This document shows positions 2,222 to 61,233 of a stretch of DNA of 64,000 bases, one piece after another. The DNA is from Candidatus Poribacteria bacterium (GTDB lineage: Bacteria > Poribacteria > WGA-4E > WGA-3G). A program made the translations under genes and the position numbers. Position 1 is the stretch's first letter; the number at the start of each line of letters is the position of its first letter. The notes beneath the pieces were generated by a model, which had not been told where the DNA came from, ran no database searches, and worked only from the letters and a program-made list of their open reading frames with translations. The stretch lies in NCBI GenBank assembly GCA_965214095.1, contig OZ243938.1, forward strand, positions 937,511 to 1,001,510, written 5' to 3'.

Positions 2222-2653
2222 ATGATACGCATCAATTTGATTTTACTTGTAATTCTCTGTCTCTGTATGTTTGTTAGTGTTGTCCATGTGCAAGGTGCAA
2301 CAATCAAAGGAGAAGTCATTGAGGCAACTCCAGAACAGAGACCGATTGCAGGCGTTACCGTAAAAATAGTTAATGTTGCAACTGAAGAAGAATTTACCGT
2401 CACAACAAATAAAGACGGTTTCTATGAGAAAAAGGGATTACCCGCCGGTCGCTATATTATAAGTGTATCCAAAAATGGTTATGGAGACAGAGTAGGCAAA
2501 TCCAAAGTTGTTGCTGCCGGTGGTGAAATCTTTGACAGAATCAAGATGAGAAAAATTGAGAACATATTCACCTTTTTGTTTGATCTTTACGGGTACTTTA
2601 TCATTGGCGTTATGATAGCATTTATCCTAATATTTACAGGTGCAGAGTTGTAA
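2222..2653 (+). CDS. Small exported protein with a CarboxypepD_reg-like beta-sandwich domain and a C-terminal TM anchor
   Basis: Signal peptide, then GVTVKIVN...TTNKDGFYEKKGLPAGRYIISVSKNGYGD, then a C-terminal hydrophobic helix. Paralog of 2840..3337. Confidence 0.55.
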   Translation: MIRINLILLVILCLCMFVSVVHVQGATIKGEVIEATPEQRPIAGVTVKIVNVATEEEFTVTTNKDGFYEKKGLPAGRYIISVSKNGYGDRVGKSKVVAAGGEIFDRIKMRKIENIFTFLFDLYGYFIIGVMIAFILIFTGAEL

Positions 2654-2839
2654 TCTCCTATCTTTTTTCACAGAAAGTGATCTATAGTAGATTTTGAAAT
2701 TACTTGAACACTCTACACCGGCTAGGTTAGGAAACCTCGCCTACCGTCGGATGAAAGTGTAAATATAATTTTATACTTCACCATATAAGTTGTAGAAGAG
2801 ATTTGTTCTTAAATAATTTGGTCTTATGAGATTCTGAAA

Positions 2840-3337
2840 ATGGAGCAAAAAATGACTCGCTTATGTTCAATTAGGATGTATATTGTATGTTTGTGTTGTT
2901 TTATGTGTTTCGGTATTGCATACGGACAAGATGCTTTTATTGATAGTGGAGGTGCAACAATCAGAGGTCAAGTCCTTGACGCATCTCCTGAACGGAAACC
3001 GATAGAAGGTGTTACCGTGAAAATAGTGTATTCTGCAGATGGTCAGGAATATACCGTCACAACTGATAAAGATGGTAATTACAAAAAAACCGGGTTACCT
3101 GCAGGTCGATATATTATCAGTGTATCTAAGGATGGTTACGGAGACAGAATGGGCAAGTCAAAGGTGCTTGCTGCAGGCGGTGAAATCTATGACCAAATCA
3201 AGATGCTAAAAAAAGAAAACATAATTACATTTGTTCAAAGACAACCTCTTGTATGGTTACTTGTTGCTGGTGTTGCCATTGTAATTATTGTCGCTCTTGT
3301 GATTTTCTTCATAGATTTACGGAAACCGCGTTATTGA
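2840..3337 (+). CDS. Paralog of the preceding small exported CarboxypepD_reg-like protein. The true start may be an internal Met.
   Basis: Same domain string (GVTVKIVYSADGQEYTVTTDKDGNYKKTGLPAGRYIISVSKDGYGD) and a C-terminal TM helix. Separated from its paralog by a REP-containing mini-MITE. Confidence 0.55.
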   Translation: MEQKMTRLCSIRMYIVCLCCFMCFGIAYGQDAFIDSGGATIRGQVLDASPERKPIEGVTVKIVYSADGQEYTVTTDKDGNYKKTGLPAGRYIISVSKDGYGDRMGKSKVLAAGGEIYDQIKMLKKENIITFVQRQPLVWLLVAGVAIVIIVALVIFFIDLRKPRY

Positions 3338-3346
3338 GGAAGGTAA

Positions 3347-4438
3347 ATGGCACATGTCATTCTGAACGATGTAACTAAAATATACAACAATGATATTCAT
3401 GCTGTAGATAACGCAGACTTTCAAATCCCAGATGAGTCGTTTACTGTGCTTGTTGGACCTTCGGGATGTGGCAAGTCCACAATCTTACGGATGATTGCAG
3501 GACTGGAAGAGATTACTGAAGGTGACATCTATATTGACGATGAACGCATTAACGACGTGCCTCCGAAGGATAGGGACATCGCAATGGTATTTCAAAACTA
3601 TGCACTCTATCCACACATGACGGTGTATAAGAATATGGCGTTTGGATTAAAACTGCGGAAATATGAGAAAAAGGAGATTGACACACGCGTCAACGAAGCA
3701 GCAAACATCCTCAGTATTTCGCATCTGTTGAATCGAAAACCGAAGCACCTTTCCGGCGGTGAACGTCAACGTGTAGCAGTCGGCAGAGCAATCGTTCGGC
3801 AACCGAAGGTATTCCTATTTGATGAACCTTTGAGCAACCTTGATGCAAAACTTCGCGTCCAAATGCGGATGGAAATCAGCCGTCTGCATGATCGACTCAA
3901 GGCGACTATAATCTATGTCACGCACGATCAGGTTGAGGCGATGACGATGGGAGATCAGATCGTTGTTCTCAATGAAGGGAAAATCCAACAGATCGCAGAA
4001 CCGGGCACGCTCTACCACAAACCCACTAATCAATTTGTCGGTGGTTTCATCGGCACACCACCAATGAACTTTATTGATGCACAGATTGAGAGAAATAACG
4101 GCACACCAACATTGAAGTTTGAAGACTTCTCGTTGAAACTGAATACTGAATTGCAATCAATTCTCAGTGAAATATCGGGGAACTCTGTGACGCTCGGTAT
4201 CCGTCCTGAAGATATTTATGTCGGAGAAAACGAAGTTAATCAAGTTATCTCACATGTGGAACTTGTTGAACCGCTTGGAAACCATGCCCTTCTGTATCTA
4301 CGGACAGAGAAGAATACCTTTGTTATCCAATCAAATCTGGAAGATTTACCACAACACAACTCGCCTTTGACGGTGAGTTTTGACACTGAAAAAGCACACC
4401 TATTCCACACAGAGACAGGCGAATCGTTGACAGCATGA
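3347..4438 (+). CDS. ABC transporter ATP-binding protein, MalK/MsmX/UgpC family (sugar import ATPase)
   Basis: Walker A GPSGCGKST, signature LSGGERQRVAVGRA, Walker B FLFDEPLSNLD, and a C-terminal MalK-like regulatory/TOBE domain. No permease or binding-protein gene adjacent. Confidence 0.85.
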   Translation: MAHVILNDVTKIYNNDIHAVDNADFQIPDESFTVLVGPSGCGKSTILRMIAGLEEITEGDIYIDDERINDVPPKDRDIAMVFQNYALYPHMTVYKNMAFGLKLRKYEKKEIDTRVNEAANILSISHLLNRKPKHLSGGERQRVAVGRAIVRQPKVFLFDEPLSNLDAKLRVQMRMEISRLHDRLKATIIYVTHDQVEAMTMGDQIVVLNEGKIQQIAEPGTLYHKPTNQFVGGFIGTPPMNFIDAQIERNNGTPTLKFEDFSLKLNTELQSILSEISGNSVTLGIRPEDIYVGENEVNQVISHVELVEPLGNHALLYLRTEKNTFVIQSNLEDLPQHNSPLTVSFDTEKAHLFHTETGESLTA

Positions 4439-4919
4439 TATAGTGAAATGTGAAAATACGGGCACACTCCACGGTAGATGCGGTTTCCTAACTGTATCTA
4501 TGAGACTGAACAAACACCAGTGGACTGTCTATTCTTATGTTGTAGGTCGGGTAGAGAGACGACACCCGACTTTATTGATGATAAATGGCTGCATGTCGGG
4601 TTTCGTGCCTCTACCCGACCTACAATTTTAGCGTAGACGCTCCACCAGTTCGGTTAGGAAACCGAACCTACCTTAGTGTAAATAATTATACCGAATTTAT
4701 GAGGCTCAACAAAAACCAGTTCGGTTAGGAAACCGAACCTACCTTAGTGTGTAAATAATTATACCGTATCTATGAGGCTCAACAAAAACCAGTTCGGTTA
4801 GGAAACCGAACCTACCGTGTGTAAATAATTATACCGTATCTATGAGACTGAACAGACACCAGTTCGGTTAGGAAACCGAACCTACCGTTGTGTGTAAATA
4901 ATTATGATTTTTACTATAA
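4438..4919. mobile_element. Expanded copy of a TIR-bounded MITE (TIR about TTATAGTGAAA) carrying REP hairpins. It contains a nested palindromic mini-element (4541..4624) and a 4x tandem array of an approx 70-bp unit.
   Basis: Left end TATAGTGAAATG abuts the ABC ATPase stop. Right end TTTTTACTATAA at 4919. The interior matches the intact copy at 36507..36646, except for an insertion flanked by a CACCAG direct repeat and the tandem amplification. Confidence 0.6.
4646..4900. repeat. Tandem array of four approx 70-bp units, each a REP hairpin plus a conserved linker
   Basis: Units start near 4646, 4716, 4789 and 4860 with AGTTCGGTTAGGAAACCGAACCTACC followed by a near-identical GTGTGTAAATAATTATACCGTATCTATGAG linker. 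Confidence 0.7.
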
Positions 4920-5974: not shown

Positions 5975-6802
5975 TTATATGTCTTCTGTCCGATTAAGGA
6001 TTTCTGCTATCCGTTTCGCGAAACGATACGCACTGTTGTCCTCTGGAGCATATCCTATCACCTTGCGCGCATTGGTAATGCTCCAGAACTTATGGGAGTT
6101 GTCGCTGATACCGTAGAATATCTGGAATGGGATTCCGTTCTCGTCCTCAATGTTCTCTGTTTCAATACTCTTGACAAAGAGTTGAACCTGATCACGGACA
6201 CTCAAGTATGCACCAAGTGCGCGGTGCATTTTATGATAATTGTCCGCTGTGATGTCATTCAAATCGGTTTCCCGCGGCGCACCGATACGGATTTGCACAT
6301 TCTGCAGTTTCTTGTTCTTCCTAAAGCCAGTGGCAAAAACAAAACCGAGATGTTCATACGCTTCTTTTGCCCATCCATAAAAGTTATCTGACAAGGGACG
6401 CATCTCAGGTGTTACAAAATCCCATTTTCCTGACCAGATAAGTTTTTCATAATAGTCTGCTGCGTGGTTAGAACTACACACCACAACGCGCCGCACATCC
6501 GTTTCCCAACTGGTATGGTATATGTTATATGCCATCTGTATGTTGTTGAGTTCGTTCTCAAACCCACCGCCTTGAAATGCACAGTGCACAACAGCGTCTA
6601 CACCTTCAAAATATCGTTTATATAACTCTCGGTCAGGGTTGCTAACATCAACGATGTGAACACCATCCATCTCTTCTCCCTGCCGATTTGTGTTTCGGAC
6701 ATCAAGTAGAACAAGATCGTATCGTTCGCGAAATGCTGGCAGCATCCGTCCTGCAATATAACCTGCTGCACCTGTGATTAAGACTTTTCTGCGGTTTGGC
6801 AT
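5975..6802 (-). CDS. NAD-dependent epimerase/dehydratase family protein (extended SDR)
   Basis: N-terminal Rossmann motif VLITGAAGYIAG. Confidence 0.7.
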   Translation of the reverse strand: MPNRRKVLITGAAGYIAGRMLPAFRERYDLVLLDVRNTNRQGEEMDGVHIVDVSNPDRELYKRYFEGVDAVVHCAFQGGGFENELNNIQMAYNIYHTSWETDVRRVVVCSSNHAADYYEKLIWSGKWDFVTPEMRPLSDNFYGWAKEAYEHLGFVFATGFRKNKKLQNVQIRIGAPRETDLNDITADNYHKMHRALGAYLSVRDQVQLFVKSIETENIEDENGIPFQIFYGISDNSHKFWSITNARKVIGYAPEDNSAYRFAKRIAEILNRTEDI

Positions 6803-6920
6803 TGTACTTCCTTGACATTATAGTGAAATGTAAACATACGTGCACACTCCTCGGAAGATGCGGTTTCCTAACTGCATCTATGAGACTGAACAAACACCGG
6901 TTCGGTTAGGAAACCGAACC

Positions 6921-8406
6921 ATAGGCGTCAATTTAGTGATTTTTTGCTGCATTTTCAAGGTGTTCTAATGTTGTGTCTCTATTAGCACGTCTCTCAATGT
7001 AGCACCCATTTTGGAAAGCGTGTTTTATTTCATCAAAAGTTTGCCGAAAAGACATTATAGACTTGCGGAAACCTATTGCAAGTGTGCGTGCGAAGGTGCT
7101 AATAAGTTCTGCTGTTTTTGTTAGACTATGTTTTAGACATCGCCAACCGACCCTTAACATGATCCAGTGCCGCATAATTGCGACGATGAGTTTTGCATAT
7201 AACTCACATAAGATTCTATATGGCTTGTCGCTACGGGAGGTATCAACTTTTCCAATGCTTTTGAAGCACTTGAACATCAACTCAACCTGCCATCGGATGC
7301 GTGCGACAGCACAAATCTGTTCAGCAGTCAGATGGTCTACTTTTATATTAGTAATGTAGATATTCCATCTTGCGAGCTGAAGTCGTTTGGGTGAAGGTTT
7401 CGTATACTTCCGCTTTGCACGATGTTTTATCTCCTTAATACGCTGTTGGGTTTCTGTTTCTGAAAGTCTTTGAACAACTAATCGTGCTTTGAGACGCTTG
7501 TTTTTACCTATAAAGATTTGTTTGTCCTTGAAGTTATTAGAACCCTTCTTGAGCCATTTTAGCAAGCAAAAAGGGGCACCTGTTTCATCATAGAGAAAAC
7601 ACTGGACTTTGTAGCGTGATATCCAAAAGACGTTTGCATCGGAAAGTCTTTTGAAGGTATCAAGTGAATAATAGCCGAGGTCTGCGAGGCGCAAACTGCC
7701 GGCGGGTAGCATGTCAATCTGCTTTTCAATAGCACTATCAGCGGTGATACCATTGGTCAGTTCAAAGTGTTCAAAAGTGCCTGTGGCACTATCAAAACGC
7801 AGGTGGAGTTTCACGGCAGCTGTGTTCGGTTTATTCTTTTTGCTTCCACCTTCCCAAGTTTCGTGGAGCACATCAGGGAGTGTAATCCAAGAACTATCTT
7901 GTAAATAGACACCAGTGAACTTTTCAAGGAGCGGAAGCGTTTGCGGGTCGGCAGAAATAACCTTGGACGCAGTAGCATCAAGGATAACTTTCAGGGTCTC
8001 TGCTGCTTCAGATGTAAATCGTTGTTCAATGGCTTGTCGTGAGATTGAAATCCCCAGCACACCAGCGGTTTGCGCAAGTTGTGTATAGGTGGCATCTGGG
8101 TTTTCTAACCAAGTCCAAATGAGTATTTGAGCAAAACGACTACCGTTGAGTTTACAACTTCTTTTGACAAAACCTGTATTGAGAGCTGCATCATTGGCTA
8201 TAGTTGTAAGAATATGTTGCATTTCTTTGGGAACTTGTGATAATGTATTCATTAGGAAACACCTCTTTGTAGACCATAATAAATCTATATCTACATTATA
8301 TATGAGGTGTTTTCATTTTTACAGAAGTTTTATTTCATAATTTATACTTCCTCTGATTAAAAGTTGACACTTATCGGTCTTGGTGCATCCTTAAATTGAC
8401 GCCTAT
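6921..8406 (-). mobile_element. IS4-family insertion sequence (approx 1486 bp) with 15-bp terminal inverted repeats ATAGGCGTCAATTTA
   Basis: ATAGGCGTCAATTTAG at 6921 and its reverse complement TTAAATTGACGCCTAT ending at 8406. A single transposase ORF inside. Flanked on both sides by a direct copy of GGTTCGGTTAGGAAACCGAACC. Confidence 0.75.
6933..8252 (-). CDS. IS4-family DDE transposase
   Basis: C-terminal R-x3-E-x6-K signature (RIRWQVELMFKCFKS), typical of IS4/IS10/IS50-type transposases. 439 aa. Confidence 0.75.
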   Translation of the reverse strand: MNTLSQVPKEMQHILTTIANDAALNTGFVKRSCKLNGSRFAQILIWTWLENPDATYTQLAQTAGVLGISISRQAIEQRFTSEAAETLKVILDATASKVISADPQTLPLLEKFTGVYLQDSSWITLPDVLHETWEGGSKKNKPNTAAVKLHLRFDSATGTFEHFELTNGITADSAIEKQIDMLPAGSLRLADLGYYSLDTFKRLSDANVFWISRYKVQCFLYDETGAPFCLLKWLKKGSNNFKDKQIFIGKNKRLKARLVVQRLSETETQQRIKEIKHRAKRKYTKPSPKRLQLARWNIYITNIKVDHLTAEQICAVARIRWQVELMFKCFKSIGKVDTSRSDKPYRILCELYAKLIVAIMRHWIMLRVGWRCLKHSLTKTAELISTFARTLAIGFRKSIMSFRQTFDEIKHAFQNGCYIERRANRDTTLEHLENAAKNH

Positions 8407-8433
8407 GGTTCGGTTAGGAAACCGAACCTACCG
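8407..8433. repeat. REP-like element (hairpin GGTTCGGTT-AGGA-AACCGAACC plus TACCG; GTAG signature on the opposite strand)
   Basis: Perfect 9-bp stem and 4-nt loop. One of at least 25 copies in the window. Confidence 0.7.
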
Positions 8434-8492
8434 TAGTGTGTAAATAATTATAGTTTTTACTATAATGTATTACTGTAATAAGCATGGACAGA

Positions 8493-11331: not shown

Positions 11332-11814
11332 CTATGTCGCAATAATCTCAAGGAGTTTTTGCTTAAAGTCCATTGCTGATAAATGCATCCATTTATTTAG
11401 AAATGTATCATAGTCAGCAATACGATTGTTATGTGTGCGCGAGCAGAGGGTATCAACCCCAAGTAATTCATCAGACCCAAGTAATTCATCAGAATTGTAA
11501 CTTGTCTTATGTTCTGTGAGGACACCCAAAATAACATCGTTGTCGTGAATATCACCAAGTATATCCTGCAGATCGACAATAGTGTCAAGAAAATCAGAAA
11601 ACCGGCTGTCGTAATTGACGGCAAAGAATTCCATTGTGTACCGCAGTCTTTTCACAGAAATTCGCATGTTATGAAGTTCATCTCGTCGCTCTGGGTCATT
11701 AATATACTTTTCCCAACTGTACACCTCTTCAACTCTCTGTGGTAAAACGGTACGCGCGTTCTGACGAAAACTTTGCTTCGGATTGAGACCTATTATTTTC
11801 TGTGGCTTTGCCAT
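11332..11814 (-). CDS. CHAD-domain protein (second of a translationally coupled pair)
   Basis: LHNMRISVKRLRYTMEFF matches the CHAD His/Arg helix motif. GGAGG lies 7 nt before the ATG, inside the 3' end of the upstream gene. Confidence 0.55.
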   Translation of the reverse strand: MAKPQKIIGLNPKQSFRQNARTVLPQRVEEVYSWEKYINDPERRDELHNMRISVKRLRYTMEFFAVNYDSRFSDFLDTIVDLQDILGDIHDNDVILGVLTEHKTSYNSDELLGSDELLGVDTLCSRTHNNRIADYDTFLNKWMHLSAMDFKQKLLEIIAT

Positions 11815-16209: not shown

Positions 16210-16342
16210 ATACCATTTCTATAAATGTTTATTCCATTAACAAATGTTTATTCCATTAACATTTGTTAAGAATGTCTTGTAGGATGGCACAAACTGGCAG
16301 TTTGTGCTACAAAAATGCGGTGTTTTCTATTAGAAATGGTAT
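16210..16342. mobile_element. MITE (TIR ATACCATTTCTA) with a central 21-bp palindrome GCACAAACTG-G-CAGTTTGTGC. This is the uninterrupted (empty-site) version of the element at 18317..18545.
   Basis: ATACCATTTCTATA at 16210 and TAGAAATGGTAT at 16331..16342. Internal short tandem duplication ATGTTTATTCCATTAACA x2. Confidence 0.6.
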
Positions 16343-24285: not shown

Positions 24286-24294
24286 GATAAGTAT

Positions 24295-24410
24295 TCCGGC
24301 AGCGACCTACTTTCCCGCGGGGTTGCCCCCGAAGTATCATCAGCGCTGAAGGGCTTAACTACCGTGTTCGGAATGGGAACGGGTGTGTCCCCTTCGCTGT
24401 AACCACCGGA
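24295..24410 (-). rRNA. rrf: 5S ribosomal RNA
   Basis: The reverse complement reads CCGGTGGTTACAGCGAAGGGGACACACCCGTTCCCATTCCGAACACGGTAGTTAAGCCC...GCTGCCGG with the canonical CCGAACACGG and AGTTAAGC motifs. Confidence 0.85.
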
Positions 24411-24471
24411 AAGGTGTATAATAATATTTGACAAATGAATAGTGTGTGAGGGGTCGGTAGAGAAAAATAAG

Positions 24472-27469
<2,998 letters not shown>

Positions 27470-27567
27470 GGTGATATTTTTCTTTCTACCGATTTACCCT
27501 CTACTATTCATTTTGTCAAAGAACGCCGCCTATATTCTCAGAAATGCGTTGCATTTCATTTAGGCGA

Positions 27568-27640
27568 TGGAGATGAGCGGAGTTGAACCGCTGACCTACT
27601 GCGTGCAAAGCAGTTGCTCTCCCAGCTGAGCTACACCCCC
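27568..27640 (-). tRNA. tRNA-Ala (anticodon UGC), no encoded CCA
   Basis: GGGGGTGTAGCTCAGCTGGGAGAGCAACTGCTTTGCACGCAGTAGGTCAGCGGTTCAACTCCGCTCATCTCCA. Cloverleaf folds with a G3:U70 wobble, the Ala identity element. Confidence 0.8.
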
Positions 27641-30093: not shown

Positions 30094-30194
30094 TTGCTAA
30101 GATTGATTGTTGGAGAGGGTTTCTAACCCCGATATATCCTAATATCACCTGACATTTCAATGGTATTGCCGAAGGTATATTATGCGGGATATCC

Positions 30195-30365
30195 ATAAGC
30201 GTCAATTTAGCGTCCTTCCAAGTACCGGTAGGTTCGGTTTCCTAACCGAACCGGCTTTGTGCCAAATACCTTCATAGAGGTTCTCGCTTAGGATCCGGTT
30301 CGGTTAGGAAACCGAACCTACCGTCACGGGGAATGAAGCGTAATTCTCCTTAAATTGACGCCTAT
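30195..30365. mobile_element. MITE derived from the IS4-family IS (same TIR, ATAAGCGTCAATTTA / TAAATTGACGCCTAT). It carries an inverted REP doublet (REPIN-like) and is flanked by an approx 22-bp direct repeat.
   Basis: The TIRs match the IS at 6921..8406. Internal CCGGTAGGTTCGGTTTCCTAACCGAACC ... GGTTCGGTTAGGAAACCGAACCTACCG. Flanks GGTATATTATGCGGGATATCC / GGTATATTATGCGTGACATCC. Confidence 0.65.
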
Positions 30366-30551
30366 GGGTATATTATGCGTGACATCCAACAAAATAACGC
30401 TAATAATAGCAACATGGAAGAGAAGTAACTACCATTATAGTTGAACCAAAAACAACATACTCTTAAGAAATAATAGGTCAGTACTCACGCAATTTATTAC
30501 GCCTCGGACATTCTACAACTCCGTTTGAACTGATTATTTCACAATTAAGTC

Positions 30552-31580
30552 TTATTTTTCAGACATAGTATCGGTTCTGGATTTTCCCTTAAACACTGCA
30601 TAGAGATACCAGAAGGCAGGAACAAGTATGATAACCCCAATAACAACAATAACCAATATGGGACGCAACACAGAATTTGGTGCTGCAGTGTTAGAAAAAG
30701 TTAGGTTTGGTGAAATAAGATAAGGATATTGAGCAAATCCCCAACCCAAAATAATCAACACGACCTGTATCGGCACAAGCACACGTGCAAGGTGGAAGTG
30801 CCGTCTCCAAATCGCCCAAATTGCCCAAATTGAGACTACCCCTGTTAATATATGGAACGGAATAGACCAGACACTATTTCCCAAACCGCGACGTATTGAA
30901 GGTGCACCTTCAGCAGACAAAAGAAAACTGATCACTGCCATCAATCCGACACTGAATGCTCCGATGAGAGCACGCATACGAAAATCTTCACGCAATTCAG
31001 GATCATCCGTTTCAAGCGTCAGGTAAACCGCAGCAATCAATCCACAGAGAGCCAAGGTGAAAAAACCGATTGCAAATGGGAACGGTGCCAACCAAGACGA
31101 GATAAAATCTGTGTCTACATGTCCAGTTTCTACATTAACATGTATTGTTCCAGAGGCGACTGCACCTAAAGCCACCCCCAACATAATAGGTGTAATTATG
31201 CTTGCAATAGCAAACACACGACTCCAACGGAGATGTGTCGTCTCAGATTGGTCATCATACGTTCTGAATACGAAGGCTGTCCCTCGAAGTACAATTCCGA
31301 ATAACATCAGTGTCAGTGGGATGTGTAGAGCAGTTCCTATAGTTGCAAATGCCACGGGAAACGCAGCAAATAGCAGCACAATAATGACAATCAACCAAAC
31401 GTGATTTGCTTCCCAGATTGGAGCAAGTGCGTGGGTAATTAGGTCACGTTGAGATTTTGCCCGTTTACCTGTTGCAAATAGGTCCCAGATTCCGCCACCA
31501 AAATCTGCACCACCAGTCAGCATATAGATTACCAGTGAGATTAGCATTACACCAGCAATCCAGATTTCAAGACCAAACAT
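30552..31580 (-). CDS. cydB: Cytochrome bd ubiquinol oxidase subunit II
   Basis: MFGLEIWIAGVMLI...GGADFGGGIWDL N-terminus and 8-9 TM helices. Start chosen at the internal Met. Confidence 0.8.
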   Translation of the reverse strand: MFGLEIWIAGVMLISLVIYMLTGGADFGGGIWDLFATGKRAKSQRDLITHALAPIWEANHVWLIVIIVLLFAAFPVAFATIGTALHIPLTLMLFGIVLRGTAFVFRTYDDQSETTHLRWSRVFAIASIITPIMLGVALGAVASGTIHVNVETGHVDTDFISSWLAPFPFAIGFFTLALCGLIAAVYLTLETDDPELREDFRMRALIGAFSVGLMAVISFLLSAEGAPSIRRGLGNSVWSIPFHILTGVVSIWAIWAIWRRHFHLARVLVPIQVVLIILGWGFAQYPYLISPNLTFSNTAAPNSVLRPILVIVVIGVIILVPAFWYLYAVFKGKSRTDTMSEK

Positions 31581-31682
31581 TTGCTTTCTCCACAGCTTTA
31601 TAGTAGAATCCAAAATATGTGGACACTGTGCGATGGGGTCTCACACAACACCTTTGTAATAGGTGCTGGGTAACCCAGCCCT

Positions 31683-32041
31683 ATATGCGTCAATGTATCA
31701 TCCTTCCAAGTACCGGTAGGTTCGGTTTCCTAACCGAACCGGTTTTGTGCCAAATACCTTCATAGAGGTTCTCGCACAGGTTCCGTGCGGTTAGGAAACC
31801 GCACCTACCGGCCTGGGGAAAACGCCTAATTTACACTAAATTGACGCTCATGGTGCTGGGTAATCCTGCTCCATATACGTCAATGTATCATCCTTCCAAG
31901 TACCGGTAGGTTCGGTTTCCTAACCGAACCGGTTTTGTGCCAAATACCTTCATAGAGGTTCTCGCACAGGTTCCGTGCGGTTAGGAAACCGCACCTACCG
32001 GCCTGGGGAAAACGCCTAATTTACACTAAATTGACGCCTAT
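31683..32041. mobile_element. Two tandem copies of the IS4-derived MITE (approx 170 bp each), each with a REP doublet, separated and flanked by an approx 20-bp direct repeat. They lie between cydA and cydB.
   Basis: Units 31683..31851 and 31873..32041 are about 97% identical. Direct repeat GGTGCTGGGTAACCCAGCCC occurs three times. Confidence 0.65.
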
Positions 32042-32096
32042 GGTACTGGGTAACCCCGCCCCTACGTTTCCTGCCGCGTGTGCAAATAATTTATGA

Positions 32097-33386
32097 TTAT
32101 TCTTGGAATATTTGTCGCCGCATCAGGATAACAACTATTATTGAGAGGAAAATGTAGAGTATCGTAAATCCAATAAAGGGAACTACAAGATTTGGCATTG
32201 GCGTAACAGCATCTGCTGTGCGCATGTAGTTGTAAATGACCCACGGTTGCCGTCCGACTTCTGTCACTGTCCACCCCGCTTCAATCGCAATAAACCCCAG
32301 TGGCGCACAACATGTGACAAACCTGAGATACCATCTATCAACAGGTATCCCTTTACGTTTCCATGCCAACCATCCGCCAAGTAGACCAGCAACAATCATT
32401 ACCATGCCACACGCAACCATAATCTGAAAAGCATAGTGGACAATTGCAACGGGAGGACGATCTTCGGGTGGATATTCTTTGAGTCCTTTTATTTCAGCAT
32501 TGAAATCAAAATGTGCAAGGAAACTGAGTGCTTTTGGGATTTCTATGGCATAGCGGGTCACTTCGTCCTTTTCATCAGGAATGCCGCCGATACGCAAGGG
32601 AGCACCACGTTCTGTTTCCCACTGTGCCTCCATTGCAGCAAGTTTAACAGGTTGATGTTTTGCCACCTTTTTCGCACTGATGTCTCCAGAAATCGGCTGT
32701 AGAATTGAAAATACTACTCCTACACTTAGTGCGATAGCGAATGCTTTTCTATGAAAAGAACTCTCTGGATTTTGCCTCAGAAAATATGCATGTATGCCAG
32801 CAACAGCGAATCCAACTGCAAGGAATGCAGCGATGGTCATGTGAAGACATTGACTGAATGAGGATGGGTTTAACATCGCAGCGATTGGGTCAATGTTAGT
32901 AAAGTTGCCATCAATGTATGTAAACCCGGTGGGAGTGTTCATCCAAGCATTTGCAGTAACAACGAATATACCGGACATCATGCCACCCAGTAGCACCATC
33001 ACACCTGCTAACCAGTGAACCTTCTTTGGAACACGATCCCATCCATATAGATAGATGCCGAGAAAGATTGCTTCAATAAAGAATGCCAAACCTTCCAAAG
33101 AAAATGGCATACCTATGATACGACCTGCATGTGCCATAAAGGTTGGCCACAACAACCCGAGTTCAAAGGATAAGACGGTTCCTGAAACCGCACCGACAGC
33201 AAACATAATTGCTGTCCCTTTTGACCATCGTTTAGCAAGTGTGAGATAAGTGTCATCGTTGGTTCTAAGCCACATACCTTCAGCAATCACCATGAGTAGT
33301 GGCATTGCTATCCCAACGGAGGCAAAGATGATATGAAAGGCGAGAGACATCGCCATCTGTGCGCGTGCTGCTAACAGGTCTGCCAT
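32097..33386 (-). CDS. cydA: Cytochrome bd ubiquinol oxidase subunit I
   Basis: MAMSLAFHIIFASVGI..., Q-loop region, 9 TM helices. Confidence 0.85.
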   Translation of the reverse strand: MADLLAARAQMAMSLAFHIIFASVGIAMPLLMVIAEGMWLRTNDDTYLTLAKRWSKGTAIMFAVGAVSGTVLSFELGLLWPTFMAHAGRIIGMPFSLEGLAFFIEAIFLGIYLYGWDRVPKKVHWLAGVMVLLGGMMSGIFVVTANAWMNTPTGFTYIDGNFTNIDPIAAMLNPSSFSQCLHMTIAAFLAVGFAVAGIHAYFLRQNPESSFHRKAFAIALSVGVVFSILQPISGDISAKKVAKHQPVKLAAMEAQWETERGAPLRIGGIPDEKDEVTRYAIEIPKALSFLAHFDFNAEIKGLKEYPPEDRPPVAIVHYAFQIMVACGMVMIVAGLLGGWLAWKRKGIPVDRWYLRFVTCCAPLGFIAIEAGWTVTEVGRQPWVIYNYMRTADAVTPMPNLVVPFIGFTILYIFLSIIVVILMRRQIFQE

Positions 33387-36506: not shown

Positions 36507-36646
36507 TTATAGTGAAATGTAAAAATATATGCACACTCTACGGTAGATGCGGTTTCCAAACCGCATCTATGAGACTGAACAAACACCGGTTCGGTTAGGA
36601 AACCGAACCTACCGTCGTGTGTAAATAATTATGGTTTTTACTATAA
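36507..36646. mobile_element. Intact copy of the MITE with TIR TTATAGTGAAA, carrying an inverted REP doublet. Inserted between trmD and rplS.
   Basis: TTATAGTGAAATGTAAAAATAT...CGGTAGATGCGGTTTCCAAACCGCATC...GGTTCGGTTAGGAAACCGAACCTACCG...GGTTTTTACTATAA. Confidence 0.65.
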
Positions 36647-60691: not shown

Positions 60692-60870
60692 CACAGCGTT
60701 TGCCTATTTCAGCATCTCGAATTTTCACGGATGACGCGGATATACATGGTAGTAGGCACACGCCGTGTGCCGTTCTTACATTCTCCGAGCCATCCGCGTA
60801 AATCCGAGATCAAGGTTATTTATTTTCTGTTTTTCTTGTATTTTCTTTCACATACGCTAAATCCCCTAAG

Positions 60871-60969
60871 CCGGTAGGTTCGGTTTCCTAACCGAACCGA
60901 ATTTTCGCTAAAACCTTTCATAGTCAGTTTCCTTTTAGAATCCGTGCGGTTGGGAAACCGCACCTACCG
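60871..60969. repeat. Inverted REP doublet (REPIN-like): CGGTAGGTTCGGTTTCCTAACCGAACC ... GTGCGGTTGGGAAACCGCACCTACCG
   Basis: Two REPs in opposite orientation about 45 nt apart. The outer GTAG/CTAC signatures face away from each other. Confidence 0.6.
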
Positions 60970-61233
60970 TCTTGGGATTAACTTTCAGTGAATCCCTATT
61001 TTGGAAAATACTTAAAACTAAATAACCCTGATTATTGCCACAGGGTTATTTATAGTAAAACTTACAATTAATGAAACATATTGTCCCAATTGCATATTCA
61101 TAGAATGTAAGAGGCGCAATGAATTGCGCGACTACGAAAGAGTTTTTCTAAATGTAAAATGCATCGTTAATTTCAGATTTTACTATAGTTTTCGGTTTTT
61201 CTGCTATATTTTTCACATTTCAATATAACAACC

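What the first reader, a model, noticed from the sequence alone, without database searches (positions are those of the whole stretch)
6818..8465. IS4-family IS inserted into a REP-containing MITE; same TIRs found on 170-bp MITEs (autonomous and non-autonomous pair)
The IS (6921..8406, TIR ATAGGCGTCAATTTA, DDE transposase with an R-x3-E-x6-K signature) interrupts a copy of the TTATAGTGAAA-TIR MITE. It is flanked on both sides by a direct copy of the 22-bp REP hairpin GGTTCGGTTAGGAAACCGAACC. The intact MITE at 36507..36646 has only one copy at that position. The flanking duplicate therefore looks like an unusually long target duplication, or reflects REP-targeted insertion as known for IS1397/ISKpn1-type elements. 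The same 15-bp TIRs bound the approx 170-bp elements at 30195..30365 and 31683..32041. These have no ORF and are therefore candidate non-autonomous derivatives mobilised in trans by this transposase.
Basis: seen in the sequence. Interest (0 to 1): 0.5.

Follow-up and report, generated by a model that had tools for sequence, protein, structure and literature searches.

The report
Insertion sequence that duplicates whole hairpins
An intact jumping gene of the IS4/IS231 kind sits inside a small repeat element, and unlike its described relatives it copies about 20 bases of target DNA (here a whole hairpin) when it inserts, as do its relatives in two bacterial phyla.

Summary
An intact IS (6920..8407, 1488 bp, 439-aa DDE transposase on the minus strand) interrupts a 140-bp MITE. 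It is flanked by identical 22-mers, whereas an uninterrupted MITE copy has only one. The transposase is IS4 family, nearest the IS231 group, and the ends fit the IS231 signature CAT-------AA--TAA. The outermost C and G therefore belong to the IS, and the true target duplication is 20 bp.

This is a regular trait, not an oddity. Of 59 complete relatives in Poribacteria genomes, 52 carry abutting 17-20-bp duplications. Six of seven Chloroflexota relatives carry clean duplications of 19-21 bp. In one, removing the IS plus one 19-bp copy restores a glycosyltransferase reading frame. Three of five Firmicute IS231-like relatives show the classical 11-bp GGG(N5)CCC.

Targets share a symmetric half-site G|GG(G/T). 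REP-like hairpins fit it and take about three quarters of insertions. The hairpin is duplicated intact, not split as with IS1397-type elements.

The short elements at 30194..30366 and 31682..32042 (a tandem pair, not one element) share 19-20 terminal bases and the 19-20-bp duplication. They are credible non-autonomous partners.

Verdict: a new variant of a known kind, of moderate interest.

The parts
6920..8407 (-). Complete IS, 1488 bp, IS4 family and IS231-related, with termini CATAGGCGTCAATTTA...TAAATTGACGCCTATG
   Evidence: The CAT-end convention rests.
6933..8252 (-). Transposase gene, 439 aa. Catalytic residues D119, D191 and E324; R320 and K331 are present; A317 stands where the Y of the YREK motif would be
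8388..8407 (-). Transposase-proximal terminal repeat (IRL), CATAGGCGTCAATTTAAGGA
   Evidence: It is 20/20 identical to the right end of MITE-B1.
6920..6939 (+). Transposase-distal terminal repeat (IRR), CATAGGCGTCAATTTAGTGA
   Evidence: Its first 19 bases (6920..6938) are 19/19 identical to the right end of MITE-B2b.
6900..6919 (+). Left copy of the 20-bp target duplication, GTTCGGTTAGGAAACCGAAC (the REP-like hairpin)
8408..8427 (+). Right copy of the 20-bp target duplication
6818..6919 (+). Left part of the interrupted MITE-A (TIR TTATAGTGAAA)
8428..8465 (+). Right part of the interrupted MITE-A
36507..36646 (+). Uninterrupted MITE-A, a paralogous empty site. The single unoccupied target lies at 36589..36608
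30194..30366 (+). MITE-B1, 173 bp, with no ORF. It has IS-type termini and an interior made of two inverted REP hairpins
30174..30193 (+). Left 20-bp TSD of MITE-B1, GGTATATTATGCGGGATATC. The right copy at 30367..30386 matches it at 18/20 positions
31682..31852 (+). MITE-B2a, 171 bp, first of the tandem pair
31872..32042 (+). MITE-B2b, 171 bp, second of the tandem pair
31663..31681 (+). First of three 19-bp flanking repeats of the tandem pair, GTGCTGGGTAACCCAGCCC. The others are at 31853..31871 and 32043..32061

Best explanation
The element is an intact, probably active insertion sequence of the IS4 family. It belongs to a previously uncharacterised lineage related to the IS231 group. Its Tn5-like DDE transposase joins the two IS ends to target phosphates about 20 bp apart on opposite strands (17-21 bp across the lineage, mode 19). 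Its described relatives use a stagger of about 10 bp. Gap repair then duplicates that whole stretch.

The cut positions follow a symmetric half-site, G|GG(G/T) read inward from each cut. This is the IS231 rule GGG(N5)CCC stretched by roughly one helical turn. REP-like hairpins in this genome offer two such half-sites at the right spacing, so they are hot spots. Because the cuts lie outside the hairpin, the hairpin is copied intact on both sides of the element rather than destroyed.

Here the IS landed in the hairpin of a 140-bp MITE. The 171-173-bp MITE-B elements carry the same termini and the same 19-20-bp duplications, and are most likely moved in trans by this or a sister transposase, as MIC231 cassettes are by IS231.

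Shown:
- the anatomy of the element;
- family placement;
- the duplication length at about 60 sites;
- the half-site bias;
- restoration of an empty site.

Inferred:
- the wider active-site spacing (or a different bend in the captured target) that would produce the long stagger;
- the cut-and-paste pathway;
- trans-mobilisation of the MITEs.
For: Family placement:
- NCBIfam IS4 model NF033592 scores 195 bits against a cut-off of 115, and Pfam DDE_Tnp_1 matches.
- D119, D191, E324, R320 and K331 are invariant in the alignment.
- The predicted structure is closest to Tn5 transposase (E 3.8e-10).
- The nearest named relative is IS231B, about 27% identity.
- The termini fit the IS231 end signature CAT-------AA--TAA--- of De Palmenaer 2008.

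Long duplication:
- In the window, 20 bp flanks the IS, and MITE-A is rebuilt at 130/140 identity after removal. MITE-B1 has 20 bp and MITE-B2 19 bp.
- Of 59 complete copies in Poribacteria MAGs, 52 have abutting repeats with at most 2 mismatches and 44 are perfect. Lengths are 17 (7 copies), 18 (9), 19 (23) and 20 (13).
- All 8 copies of the closest IS species give 20 bp, including the non-palindromic target in L005.
- Chloroflexota relatives at 33-35% identity give 19, 19, 19, 19, 20 and 21 bp.
- In L085, deleting the IS plus one 19-bp copy restores a continuous EryCIII-like glycosyltransferase ORF across the junction. Deleting the IS alone leaves a frameshift.
- As a control, Firmicute relatives L072, L073 and L077 give 11 bp, GGG(N5)CCC, and L068 gives 9 bp.

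Half-site:
- In 100 half-sites, position -1 is G in 85%, +1 is G in 97%, and +2 and +3 are G or T in 96-99%.
- The bias holds in the 24 non-REP half-sites (63%, 88% and 71% G at -1, +1 and +2).

MITE link:
- Terminal identity with the two IS ends is 20/20 and 19/19.
- MITEs in related genomes carry one IRL-type and one IRR-type end around unrelated interiors.
Against: - No transposition has been observed. Everything is inferred from static copies, many of them in metagenome-assembled genomes.
- The exact stagger is uncertain by up to 2 bp, because targets usually begin with G and end with C like the IS termini. The CAT-end assignment rests on about 8 informative sites.
- Seven of 59 copies lack a direct repeat, and three of those have inverted flanks.
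- Duplication length varies between IS species (17-20 bp) and by one base within a species, tracking hairpin length (L009 against L011). A rigid ruler is therefore too simple.
- Two Firmicute controls (L083, L084) showed inverted rather than direct flanks.
- I could not query ISfinder, so members of this lineage with recorded long repeats may already be listed there.
- Only one IS copy lies in this window, so the transposase that moved MITE-B cannot be identified.
Confidence: 0.8

Rival explanations
1. The transposase recognises the REP hairpin as such, by sequence or structure, as IS1397/ISKpn1 and other REP-targeting ISs do. The duplication is a by-product of that specificity.
For: 36 of 50 unique target sites are REP-like hairpins of two classes, and 2 more are other perfect palindromes. 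REPs make up only about 0.5% of the window (15 copies of 22 bp).
Against: Twelve unique targets are not REPs, among them a glycosyltransferase coding sequence. They give the same 18-21-bp duplications and the same G|GG half-site. Described REP-targeting ISs cut inside the REP with 0-6-bp repeats (PMC1525189). Here the REP is never split. In the second hairpin class the cuts fall inside the long stem, not at a fixed structural landmark.
Confidence: 0.1
2. The target is captured as an extruded cruciform or hairpin and cut at its base. The duplication length would then simply equal the hairpin length.
For: Within one IS species the duplication is 19 or 20 bp according to whether the hairpin loop has 3 or 4 bases (L009, L010, L013 against L011). 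Most targets are palindromic.
Against: Non-palindromic targets with an outer stem of 0-4 bp (L005, L012, L023, L031, L055, L081, L085) give the same lengths. In the OZ242381 IS the 18-bp duplication shifts by one base on a 19-20-bp palindrome, which points to a length preference.
Confidence: 0.12
3. The 22-mers are part of the element, as a 37-bp TIR. Alternatively, the IS entered by homologous or site-specific recombination between a REP carried on a circular intermediate and the REP in the MITE.
For: Because the hairpin is palindromic, hairpin-IS-hairpin also reads as an extended inverted repeat.
Against: Near-identical IS copies in one genome are flanked by different sequences, including unique non-palindromic ones (L001-L007). 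MITE-B1 and MITE-B2 have non-REP flanks. The frame restoration in L085 is a further argument.
Confidence: 0.02
4. The MITE-B elements are not partners of this IS copy. They are relics moved by a different, related transposase elsewhere in the genome, or are no longer mobile.
For: - The MITE-B termini carry 1-3 substitutions, for example ATAAGCG, ATATGCG and GCTCAT.
- The duplications have 2-3 mismatches, so the insertions are old.
- Identity to the IS stops after 19-20 bases.
- Only 64 kb of the genome was seen.
Against: The termini match both distinct IS ends, the duplication length is the same, and the half-site is the same. In related genomes MITEs with perfect IS-type ends sit next to IS copies with perfect duplications.
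Confidence: 0.2

Closest known systems
IS231 (IS231 subgroup of the IS4 family, Bacillus cereus group)
   Same: - A single-ORF DDE transposase with the R-E-K part of the YREK signature.
- The end signature CAT-------AA--TAA.
- A symmetric G-rich/C-rich target half-site that lies wholly inside the duplication. The GGG(N5)CCC rule is from my own knowledge of Hallet et al. 1994 and is reproduced here by L072, L073 and L077.
- Short non-autonomous derivatives.
   Different: - Only about 27% protein identity.
- Hosts are Poribacteria and Chloroflexota, not Bacillus.
- The duplication is 17-21 bp against 10-12 bp.
- The Y of YREK is not conserved (A, V, T or L in most members).
- A stretch of about 16 residues between the second D and the E is absent.
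MIC231 mobile insertion cassettes and bacterial MITEs
   Same: IS-type ends without a transposase gene. Interiors are modular and unrelated to the IS. MIC231 is trans-mobilised by the IS231 transposase (PMC6199540).
   Different: The elements here are far smaller (about 170-310 bp). They carry REP-like hairpins and other small repeats rather than passenger genes. Mobilisation has not been tested.
REP-targeting ISs: IS1397/ISKpn1 (IS3 family), ISPa11, ISPpu9/ISPpu10, ISRm22 (IS4 family)
   Same: A strong preference for repetitive extragenic palindromes as insertion sites.
   Different: Those elements break the REP and make repeats of 0-6 bp (PMC1525189). The loop insertion of IS1397 is from my own knowledge. 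Here the cuts flank the hairpin, which is duplicated intact, and non-REP sites are used with the same geometry.
IS1634 and IS1549 (IS1634 family)
   Same: Both were split off from IS4 and are known for long direct repeats.
   Different: Their repeats vary widely, from 8 to 514 bp (PMC2266710). The family lacks the full YREK signature and typically makes 5-6-bp repeats. Here the length is tightly regulated (17-21 bp), and the transposase scores only 28.7 bits on the IS1634 model against a cut-off of 100.
Tn5 (IS50) transposase
   Same: It is the best structural match, and the YREK region aligns.
   Different: Its duplication is 9 bp, protein identity is about 12%, and the end sequences differ.
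Cas1-Cas2 spacer integration (an analogy only, from my own knowledge)
   Same: Two staggered attacks at the borders of a partly palindromic repeat duplicate the whole repeat, and so regenerate the target.
   Different: The enzyme and chemistry context are unrelated. No homology is implied.

Membership tests
IS4 family | Transposase matches the curated IS4 family model | tested here: met
   NF033592 scores 195.4 bits against a cut-off of 115. PF01609 scores 80.4 bits against a cut-off of 23.
IS4 family | DDE triad with spacing D(60-110)D(100-150)E (PMC2266710) | tested here: met
   D119, D191 and E324 are invariant in the alignment, with spacings of 72 and 133 residues.
IS4 family | Y(2)R(3)E(6)K signature | tested here: inconclusive
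   R320, E324 and K331 are invariant. The Y position is A317 here and A, V, T or L in most of the lineage. Y is kept in L039, L082 and the Firmicute relatives.
IS4 family | Single transposase ORF without frameshift, and short terminal inverted repeats | tested here: met
   One 439-aa ORF. The TIR has 16 perfect bases and matches at 18 of 20.
IS4 family | Target duplication of about one helix turn, 7-13 bp (a hallmark in PMC2266710, not a criterion for assignment) | tested here: not met
   20 bp here. 17-20 bp in 52 Poribacteria copies and 19-21 bp in 6 Chloroflexota copies.
IS4 family | Tn5-like catalytic fold | tested here: met
   Model pLDDT is 77.7. Foldseek finds Tn5 transposase 1muh with E 3.8e-10 and TM about 0.45.
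IS231 subgroup | End signature CAT-------AA--TAA--- | tested here: met
   CATAGGCGTCAATTTAAGGA fits every specified position.
IS231 subgroup | Direct repeats of 10-12 bp | tested here: not met
   17-21 bp. The 11-bp rule was recovered only in Firmicute relatives.
IS231 subgroup | Close transposase similarity to IS231 elements, and a Bacillus cereus group host | tested here: not met
   About 27% identity to IS231B. All close relatives are in Poribacteria, followed by Chloroflexota.
IS1634 family | Transposase matches the IS1634 model | tested here: not met
   NF033559 scores 28.7 bits against a cut-off of 100.
REP-targeting ISs of the IS1397/ISKpn1 type | IS3-family transposase, with insertion inside the REP and a repeat of a few bp | tested here: not met
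   The transposase is IS4 family. The cuts flank the hairpin, which stays whole on both sides.
MITE / non-autonomous partner (MITE-B) | Termini identical to those of an autonomous IS, no transposase ORF, the same target duplication, and several copies | tested here: met
   Terminal identity is 20/20 and 19/19. The elements are 171-173 bp. Duplications are 19-20 bp. Three copies lie in the window, and further ones sit beside IS copies in related genomes.
MITE / non-autonomous partner (MITE-B) | Mobilisation in trans by the IS transposase | not testable with these tools
   This needs a transposition assay.

The most novel reading that the evidence does not exclude
This lineage of Tn5-like transposases captures target DNA across about two helical turns. 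Because each insertion regenerates two intact copies of its preferred hairpin, the elements multiply their own target. This would build the hairpin-element-hairpin-element-hairpin arrays seen at 10 of 52 IS copies and in the cydA-cydB spacer. It would also contribute to the spread and tandem amplification of REP-like hairpins in Poribacteria genomes.
Probability: 0.3. Interest if true: 0.7.

Novelty: new variant of a known kind. Interest (0 to 1): 0.55.

Why it matters
The length of the target duplication is treated as a fixed signature of each transposase family. It reflects how the two active sites are held against the target helix. The 2008 revision of the IS4 family used 'about one helix turn' as a family hallmark, and used shorter repeats as an argument for splitting families off.

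A large lineage runs against that rule. Thousands of proteins across at least Poribacteria and Chloroflexota keep the IS231-type ends and the G-rich symmetric half-site but nearly double the stagger. It is a natural experiment in target-capture geometry that can be tested directly with a cloned transposase and with structural work.

There is also a practical point. Annotation pipelines that look for 8-13-bp repeats will misplace the ends of these elements, or will read hairpin plus TIR as a long inverted repeat.

Finally, insertion that duplicates its own hot spot instead of destroying it gives a simple route to nested and tandem arrays of small repeats.

Tried and rejected
- **Exact-sequence look-ups.** Look-ups of the transposase and of its 98% relative P0001 found no record, so other copies from the source genome itself could not be examined.
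- **First TIR scripts.** The first script timed out. The second extended the TIR into palindromic flanks and mis-anchored on an internal TIR-like motif at 8357..8374. This was corrected.
- **Literature.** Searches for long duplications in IS4 elements or in Poribacteria ISs found nothing relevant. Hallet 1991 is not held.
- **PDB by sequence.** A profile search gave only a weak Tn5 hit at the YREK region (E 0.24). The fold search was needed to confirm the family.
- **Second Herpetosiphon copy.** A search of plasmids for a second copy found none.
- **Excision footprints.** I looked for two hairpins in tandem in 407 kb and found none of the G|GG..CC|C kind.
- **Loss of the YREK tyrosine as the cause of the long stagger.** Rejected, because L039 and L082 keep the Y yet make 18-bp and 20-bp duplications.
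- **The missing 16-residue segment as the cause.** Rejected, because L068 also lacks it and makes a 9-bp duplication.
- **Firmicute controls.** L083 (IS231B) and L084 had inverted rather than direct flanks and could not serve as controls.
- **A putative second IS at 2225..3532.** This was a chance motif match.
- **Rfam.** No known RNA family overlaps the hairpins.
Full report
**What is in the sequence**

A 15-bp perfect inverted repeat, ATAGGCGTCAATTTA, bounds 6921..8406. With up to two mismatches the motif occurs seven times in the window, against 0.18 expected. Inside lies a single 439-aa ORF on the minus strand, at 6933..8252.

Both ends abut the identical 22-mer GGTTCGGTTAGGAAACCGAACC, a 9-bp stem with a 4-base loop. 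This 22-mer occurs 15 times in the window with up to 3 mismatches, against none expected.

Outside these lie the two halves of a small element with TTATAGTGAAA-type ends. I call it MITE-A. Its uninterrupted copy at 36507..36646 has one hairpin. Deleting the IS and one 22-mer rebuilds a gap-free 140-bp sequence that is 130/140 identical to the intact copy. That copy therefore serves as a paralogous empty site. The window holds only this one IS copy.

**What family it belongs to**

- The protein matches Pfam DDE_Tnp_1 and the curated NCBIfam IS4 model (195 bits against a cut-off of 115). It scores far below threshold on the IS1634 model.
- An alignment with relatives shows invariant D119, D191 and E324, and also R320 and K331. 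The tyrosine of the full YREK signature is A317 here and is variable in the lineage.
- A profile search of the PDB aligns only the YREK region of Tn5 transposase.
- An AlphaFold model (pLDDT 77.7) finds Tn5 transposase as its best structural match (E 3.8e-10).
- The nearest named relatives are IS231 elements of Bacillus, at about 27% identity.

De Palmenaer et al. 2008 give the IS231 end signature as CAT-------AA--TAA---, with direct repeats of 10-12 bp, and 7-13 bp for the whole family (PMC2266710). CATAGGCGTCAATTTAAGGA fits that signature at every specified position, provided the C before ATAGG (and the G after CCTAT) is counted as IS.

**Where the element ends and how long the duplication is**

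The target begins with G-G and ends with C-C, so the boundary is ambiguous at this site. It is resolved at imperfect targets elsewhere.

- In L001, L055 and L066 the C next to the left end has no counterpart after the right-hand repeat.
- In L005, L023, L031, the L007 MITE and MITE-B1 the G next to the right end has no counterpart before the left-hand repeat.

The IS is therefore 6920..8407 (1488 bp) and the duplication is 20 bp, GTTCGGTTAGGAAACCGAAC.

**The long duplication is a property of the lineage**

A scan of one genome per species found 67 relatives at 46-90% identity, all in Candidatus Poribacteria MAGs. This also identifies the likely source of the window.

- Of 59 complete copies, 52 have abutting direct repeats with at most two mismatches, and 44 are perfect. 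Lengths are 17 (7 copies), 18 (9), 19 (23) and 20 (13).
- All eight copies of the closest IS species give 20 bp, including the non-palindromic target GTGACAAAATCTTTACACAC in L005.
- Length is characteristic of each IS species, with a tolerance of one base. In one species it is 19 or 20 bp according to whether the hairpin loop has three or four bases (L009, L010, L013 against L011).

Relatives at 33-35% identity in Chloroflexota (Herpetosiphon, Chlorohelix and metagenomic contigs) give 19, 19, 19, 19, 20 and 21 bp. A seventh, short-read contig gives an imperfect 17-18 bp.

In Herpetosiphon llansteffanensis the IS interrupts a glycosyltransferase gene. Removing the IS plus one 19-bp copy restores a continuous ORF through the conserved ...[21 protein letters not shown]... 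motif, and the EryCIII-like_C domain match then spans the junction. Removing the IS alone leaves a frameshift. That is as close to an empty-site proof as can be had in silico.

As a control of the method, three Firmicute IS231-like relatives give the classical 11-bp GGGNNNNNCCC, and a Bacteroidota relative gives 9 bp.

**Target choice**

I pooled 50 unique targets into 100 half-sites, each read inward from its cut.

| Position | All 100 half-sites | 24 non-REP half-sites |
|---|---|---|
| -1 (just outside the cut) | G 85% | G 63% |
| +1 | G 97% | G 88% |
| +2 | G or T 99% | G 71% |
| +3 | G or T 96% | G 54% |

This is the IS231 rule (Hallet et al. 1994, from my own knowledge; reproduced by L072, L073 and L077) with the two half-sites moved apart. 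Thirty-six of the 50 targets are REP-like hairpins of two classes, GGTKCGGTT-loop-AACCGMACC and GGGTAGAGCG..GCGAAACCC, and two more are other perfect palindromes. Such hairpins occupy roughly 0.5% of the window.

The hairpins are therefore strongly preferred. The simplest reading is that they offer two good half-sites at the right spacing, not that the transposase recognises REPs as such. Non-REP sites, including coding sequence, are used with the same geometry. In the second hairpin class the cuts fall inside the long stem.

**How it most likely works**

The shown facts are the duplication length, the symmetric half-site and the Tn5-like enzyme. IS231A is reported to move by cut-and-paste (PMC2266710). 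Whether this lineage does is inferred by homology.

From the facts I infer that the two strand transfers are made 17-21 bp apart. B-DNA repeats every 10.5 bp or so. A stagger of 19-20 bp therefore presents the two scissile phosphates on nearly the same face as the 9-bp stagger of Tn5 and IS10, but one turn further along the helix. The transpososome must either hold its active sites about 34 Å further apart along the target or bend the target differently.

I found no protein feature that explains this. Loss of the YREK tyrosine and a 16-residue deletion do not track duplication length.

**Consequences**

The cuts lie outside the hairpin, so every insertion leaves two intact copies of the preferred target.

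- Ten of the 52 IS copies with duplications abut another TIR-bounded element, with exactly one hairpin between them. An example is hairpin-IS-hairpin-MITE-hairpin in L003.
- The window shows the same architecture at 31663..32061: repeat-MITE-repeat-MITE-repeat.
- I found no hairpin-hairpin excision footprints in 407 kb.

**The short elements**

MITE-B1 (30194..30366) and the pair MITE-B2a and MITE-B2b (31682..31852 and 31872..32042) have no ORF. They carry two inverted REP hairpins inside, and are flanked by 20-bp and 19-bp repeats that are not the REP.

- The right end of MITE-B1 matches the transposase-proximal IS end at 20/20 bases.
- The right end of MITE-B2b matches the distal IS end at 19/19 bases.
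- In related genomes, MITEs of 180-311 bp beside IS copies carry one end of each type (..TTTAAGGA and ..TTTAGYG) around unrelated interiors.

This modular pattern is the one described for IS231 and its MIC231 cassettes, which the IS231 transposase mobilises in trans (PMC6199540). The autonomous/non-autonomous reading is therefore well supported by sequence, though untested. The MITE-B termini and duplications carry a few substitutions, so these insertions are older than that of the IS.

**Comparison with what is known**

- The element works like IS231 with a doubled stagger. It is an IS4-family member by transposase, but it fails the IS231-subgroup tests of duplication length, similarity and host.
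- It is unlike IS1397/ISKpn1, ISPa11, ISPpu9/10 and ISRm22, which split the REP with repeats of 0-6 bp (PMC1525189).
- It is unlike IS1634 and IS1549, whose long repeats vary from 8 to 514 bp.
- Database names for the lineage are only 'IS4 family transposase'.
- Four literature searches found no report of regular 17-22-bp duplications in a prokaryotic IS and nothing on Poribacteria ISs.
- ISfinder could not be consulted, so prior deposit cannot be excluded.

**Verdict**

What is new is a large IS231-related lineage whose target duplication is about two helix turns, which makes it duplicate its hairpin targets whole. I rate this a new variant of a known kind, with interest 0.55.

Noticed in passing
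window 31614..32096: The tandem MITE-B2 pair fills the spacer between cydA (32097..33386, minus strand) and cydB (30552..31613, minus strand) of a cytochrome bd oxidase operon. Its REP hairpins are therefore probably part of the operon transcript.
   Followed up: partly
window 31682..32061: The two tandem MITE copies differ only within their terminal 8 bases, while the three 19-bp flanking repeats differ at 2-3 positions each. TIR plus repeat plus TIR would form a palindrome of about 50 bp. The clustered changes may have been selected because they break it.
   Followed up: no
window 4438..4919: A third MITE-A copy is expanded to 482 bp. It carries a four-fold tandem array, with a period of about 71-73 bp, of its own hairpin-bearing segment (hairpins at 4647, 4718, 4791 and 4861). 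It also holds a nested element of the GTAGGTCGGGTAGAG hairpin class at about 4540..4630.
   Followed up: no
window 11458..11493 and 16223..16260: Two exact tandem duplications. One is 18 bp, inside ORF 11332..11814. The other is 19 bp, intergenic. They fall in the size range of this lineage's target duplication but lack the G|GG..CC|C ends. They could be slippage or excision footprints.
   Followed up: no
window 8357..8374: A second TIR-like motif, ATAAGTGTCAACTTTTAA, lies 33 bases inside the transposase-proximal end. It is conserved in the L001-L007 copies. It may be a second transposase binding site or a regulatory site.
   Followed up: no
window 60855..60985: An element with the same two-hairpin core as MITE-B but with degenerate ends (CACATACGCTAAAT... 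and ...GTGAATCCCTAT) and no flanking repeat. It is probably a decayed MITE-B.
   Followed up: partly
window 6818, 36507 and 4438 (MITE-A ends): All three MITE-A copies can be read as TAGTGAAA...TTTTTACTA flanked by TA on both sides. This suggests a TA duplication of the IS630/Tc1-mariner type.
   Followed up: no
window 24294..27640: 23S and 5S rRNA genes and one tRNA, with no 16S gene adjacent. An unlinked 16S gene is, from my own knowledge, reported for Poribacteria. This fits the taxonomic assignment.
   Followed up: no
window 6802..6920: The IS lies 118 bp upstream of the start codon of an NAD-dependent epimerase/dehydratase-family gene (5975..6802, minus strand), in the same orientation as that gene. 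Read-through from the transposase gene could affect its expression.
   Followed up: no
L041, L048 and L056 (also L083 and L084): In a few IS copies the right flank is the reverse complement of the left duplication rather than a direct copy. One possibility is inversion between IS copies sitting in like hairpins.
   Followed up: no
L085 518..1943 (Herpetosiphon llansteffanensis CP188824.1): A relative of the IS disrupts a GT1/EryCIII-like glycosyltransferase gene with a perfect 19-bp duplication.
   Followed up: yes
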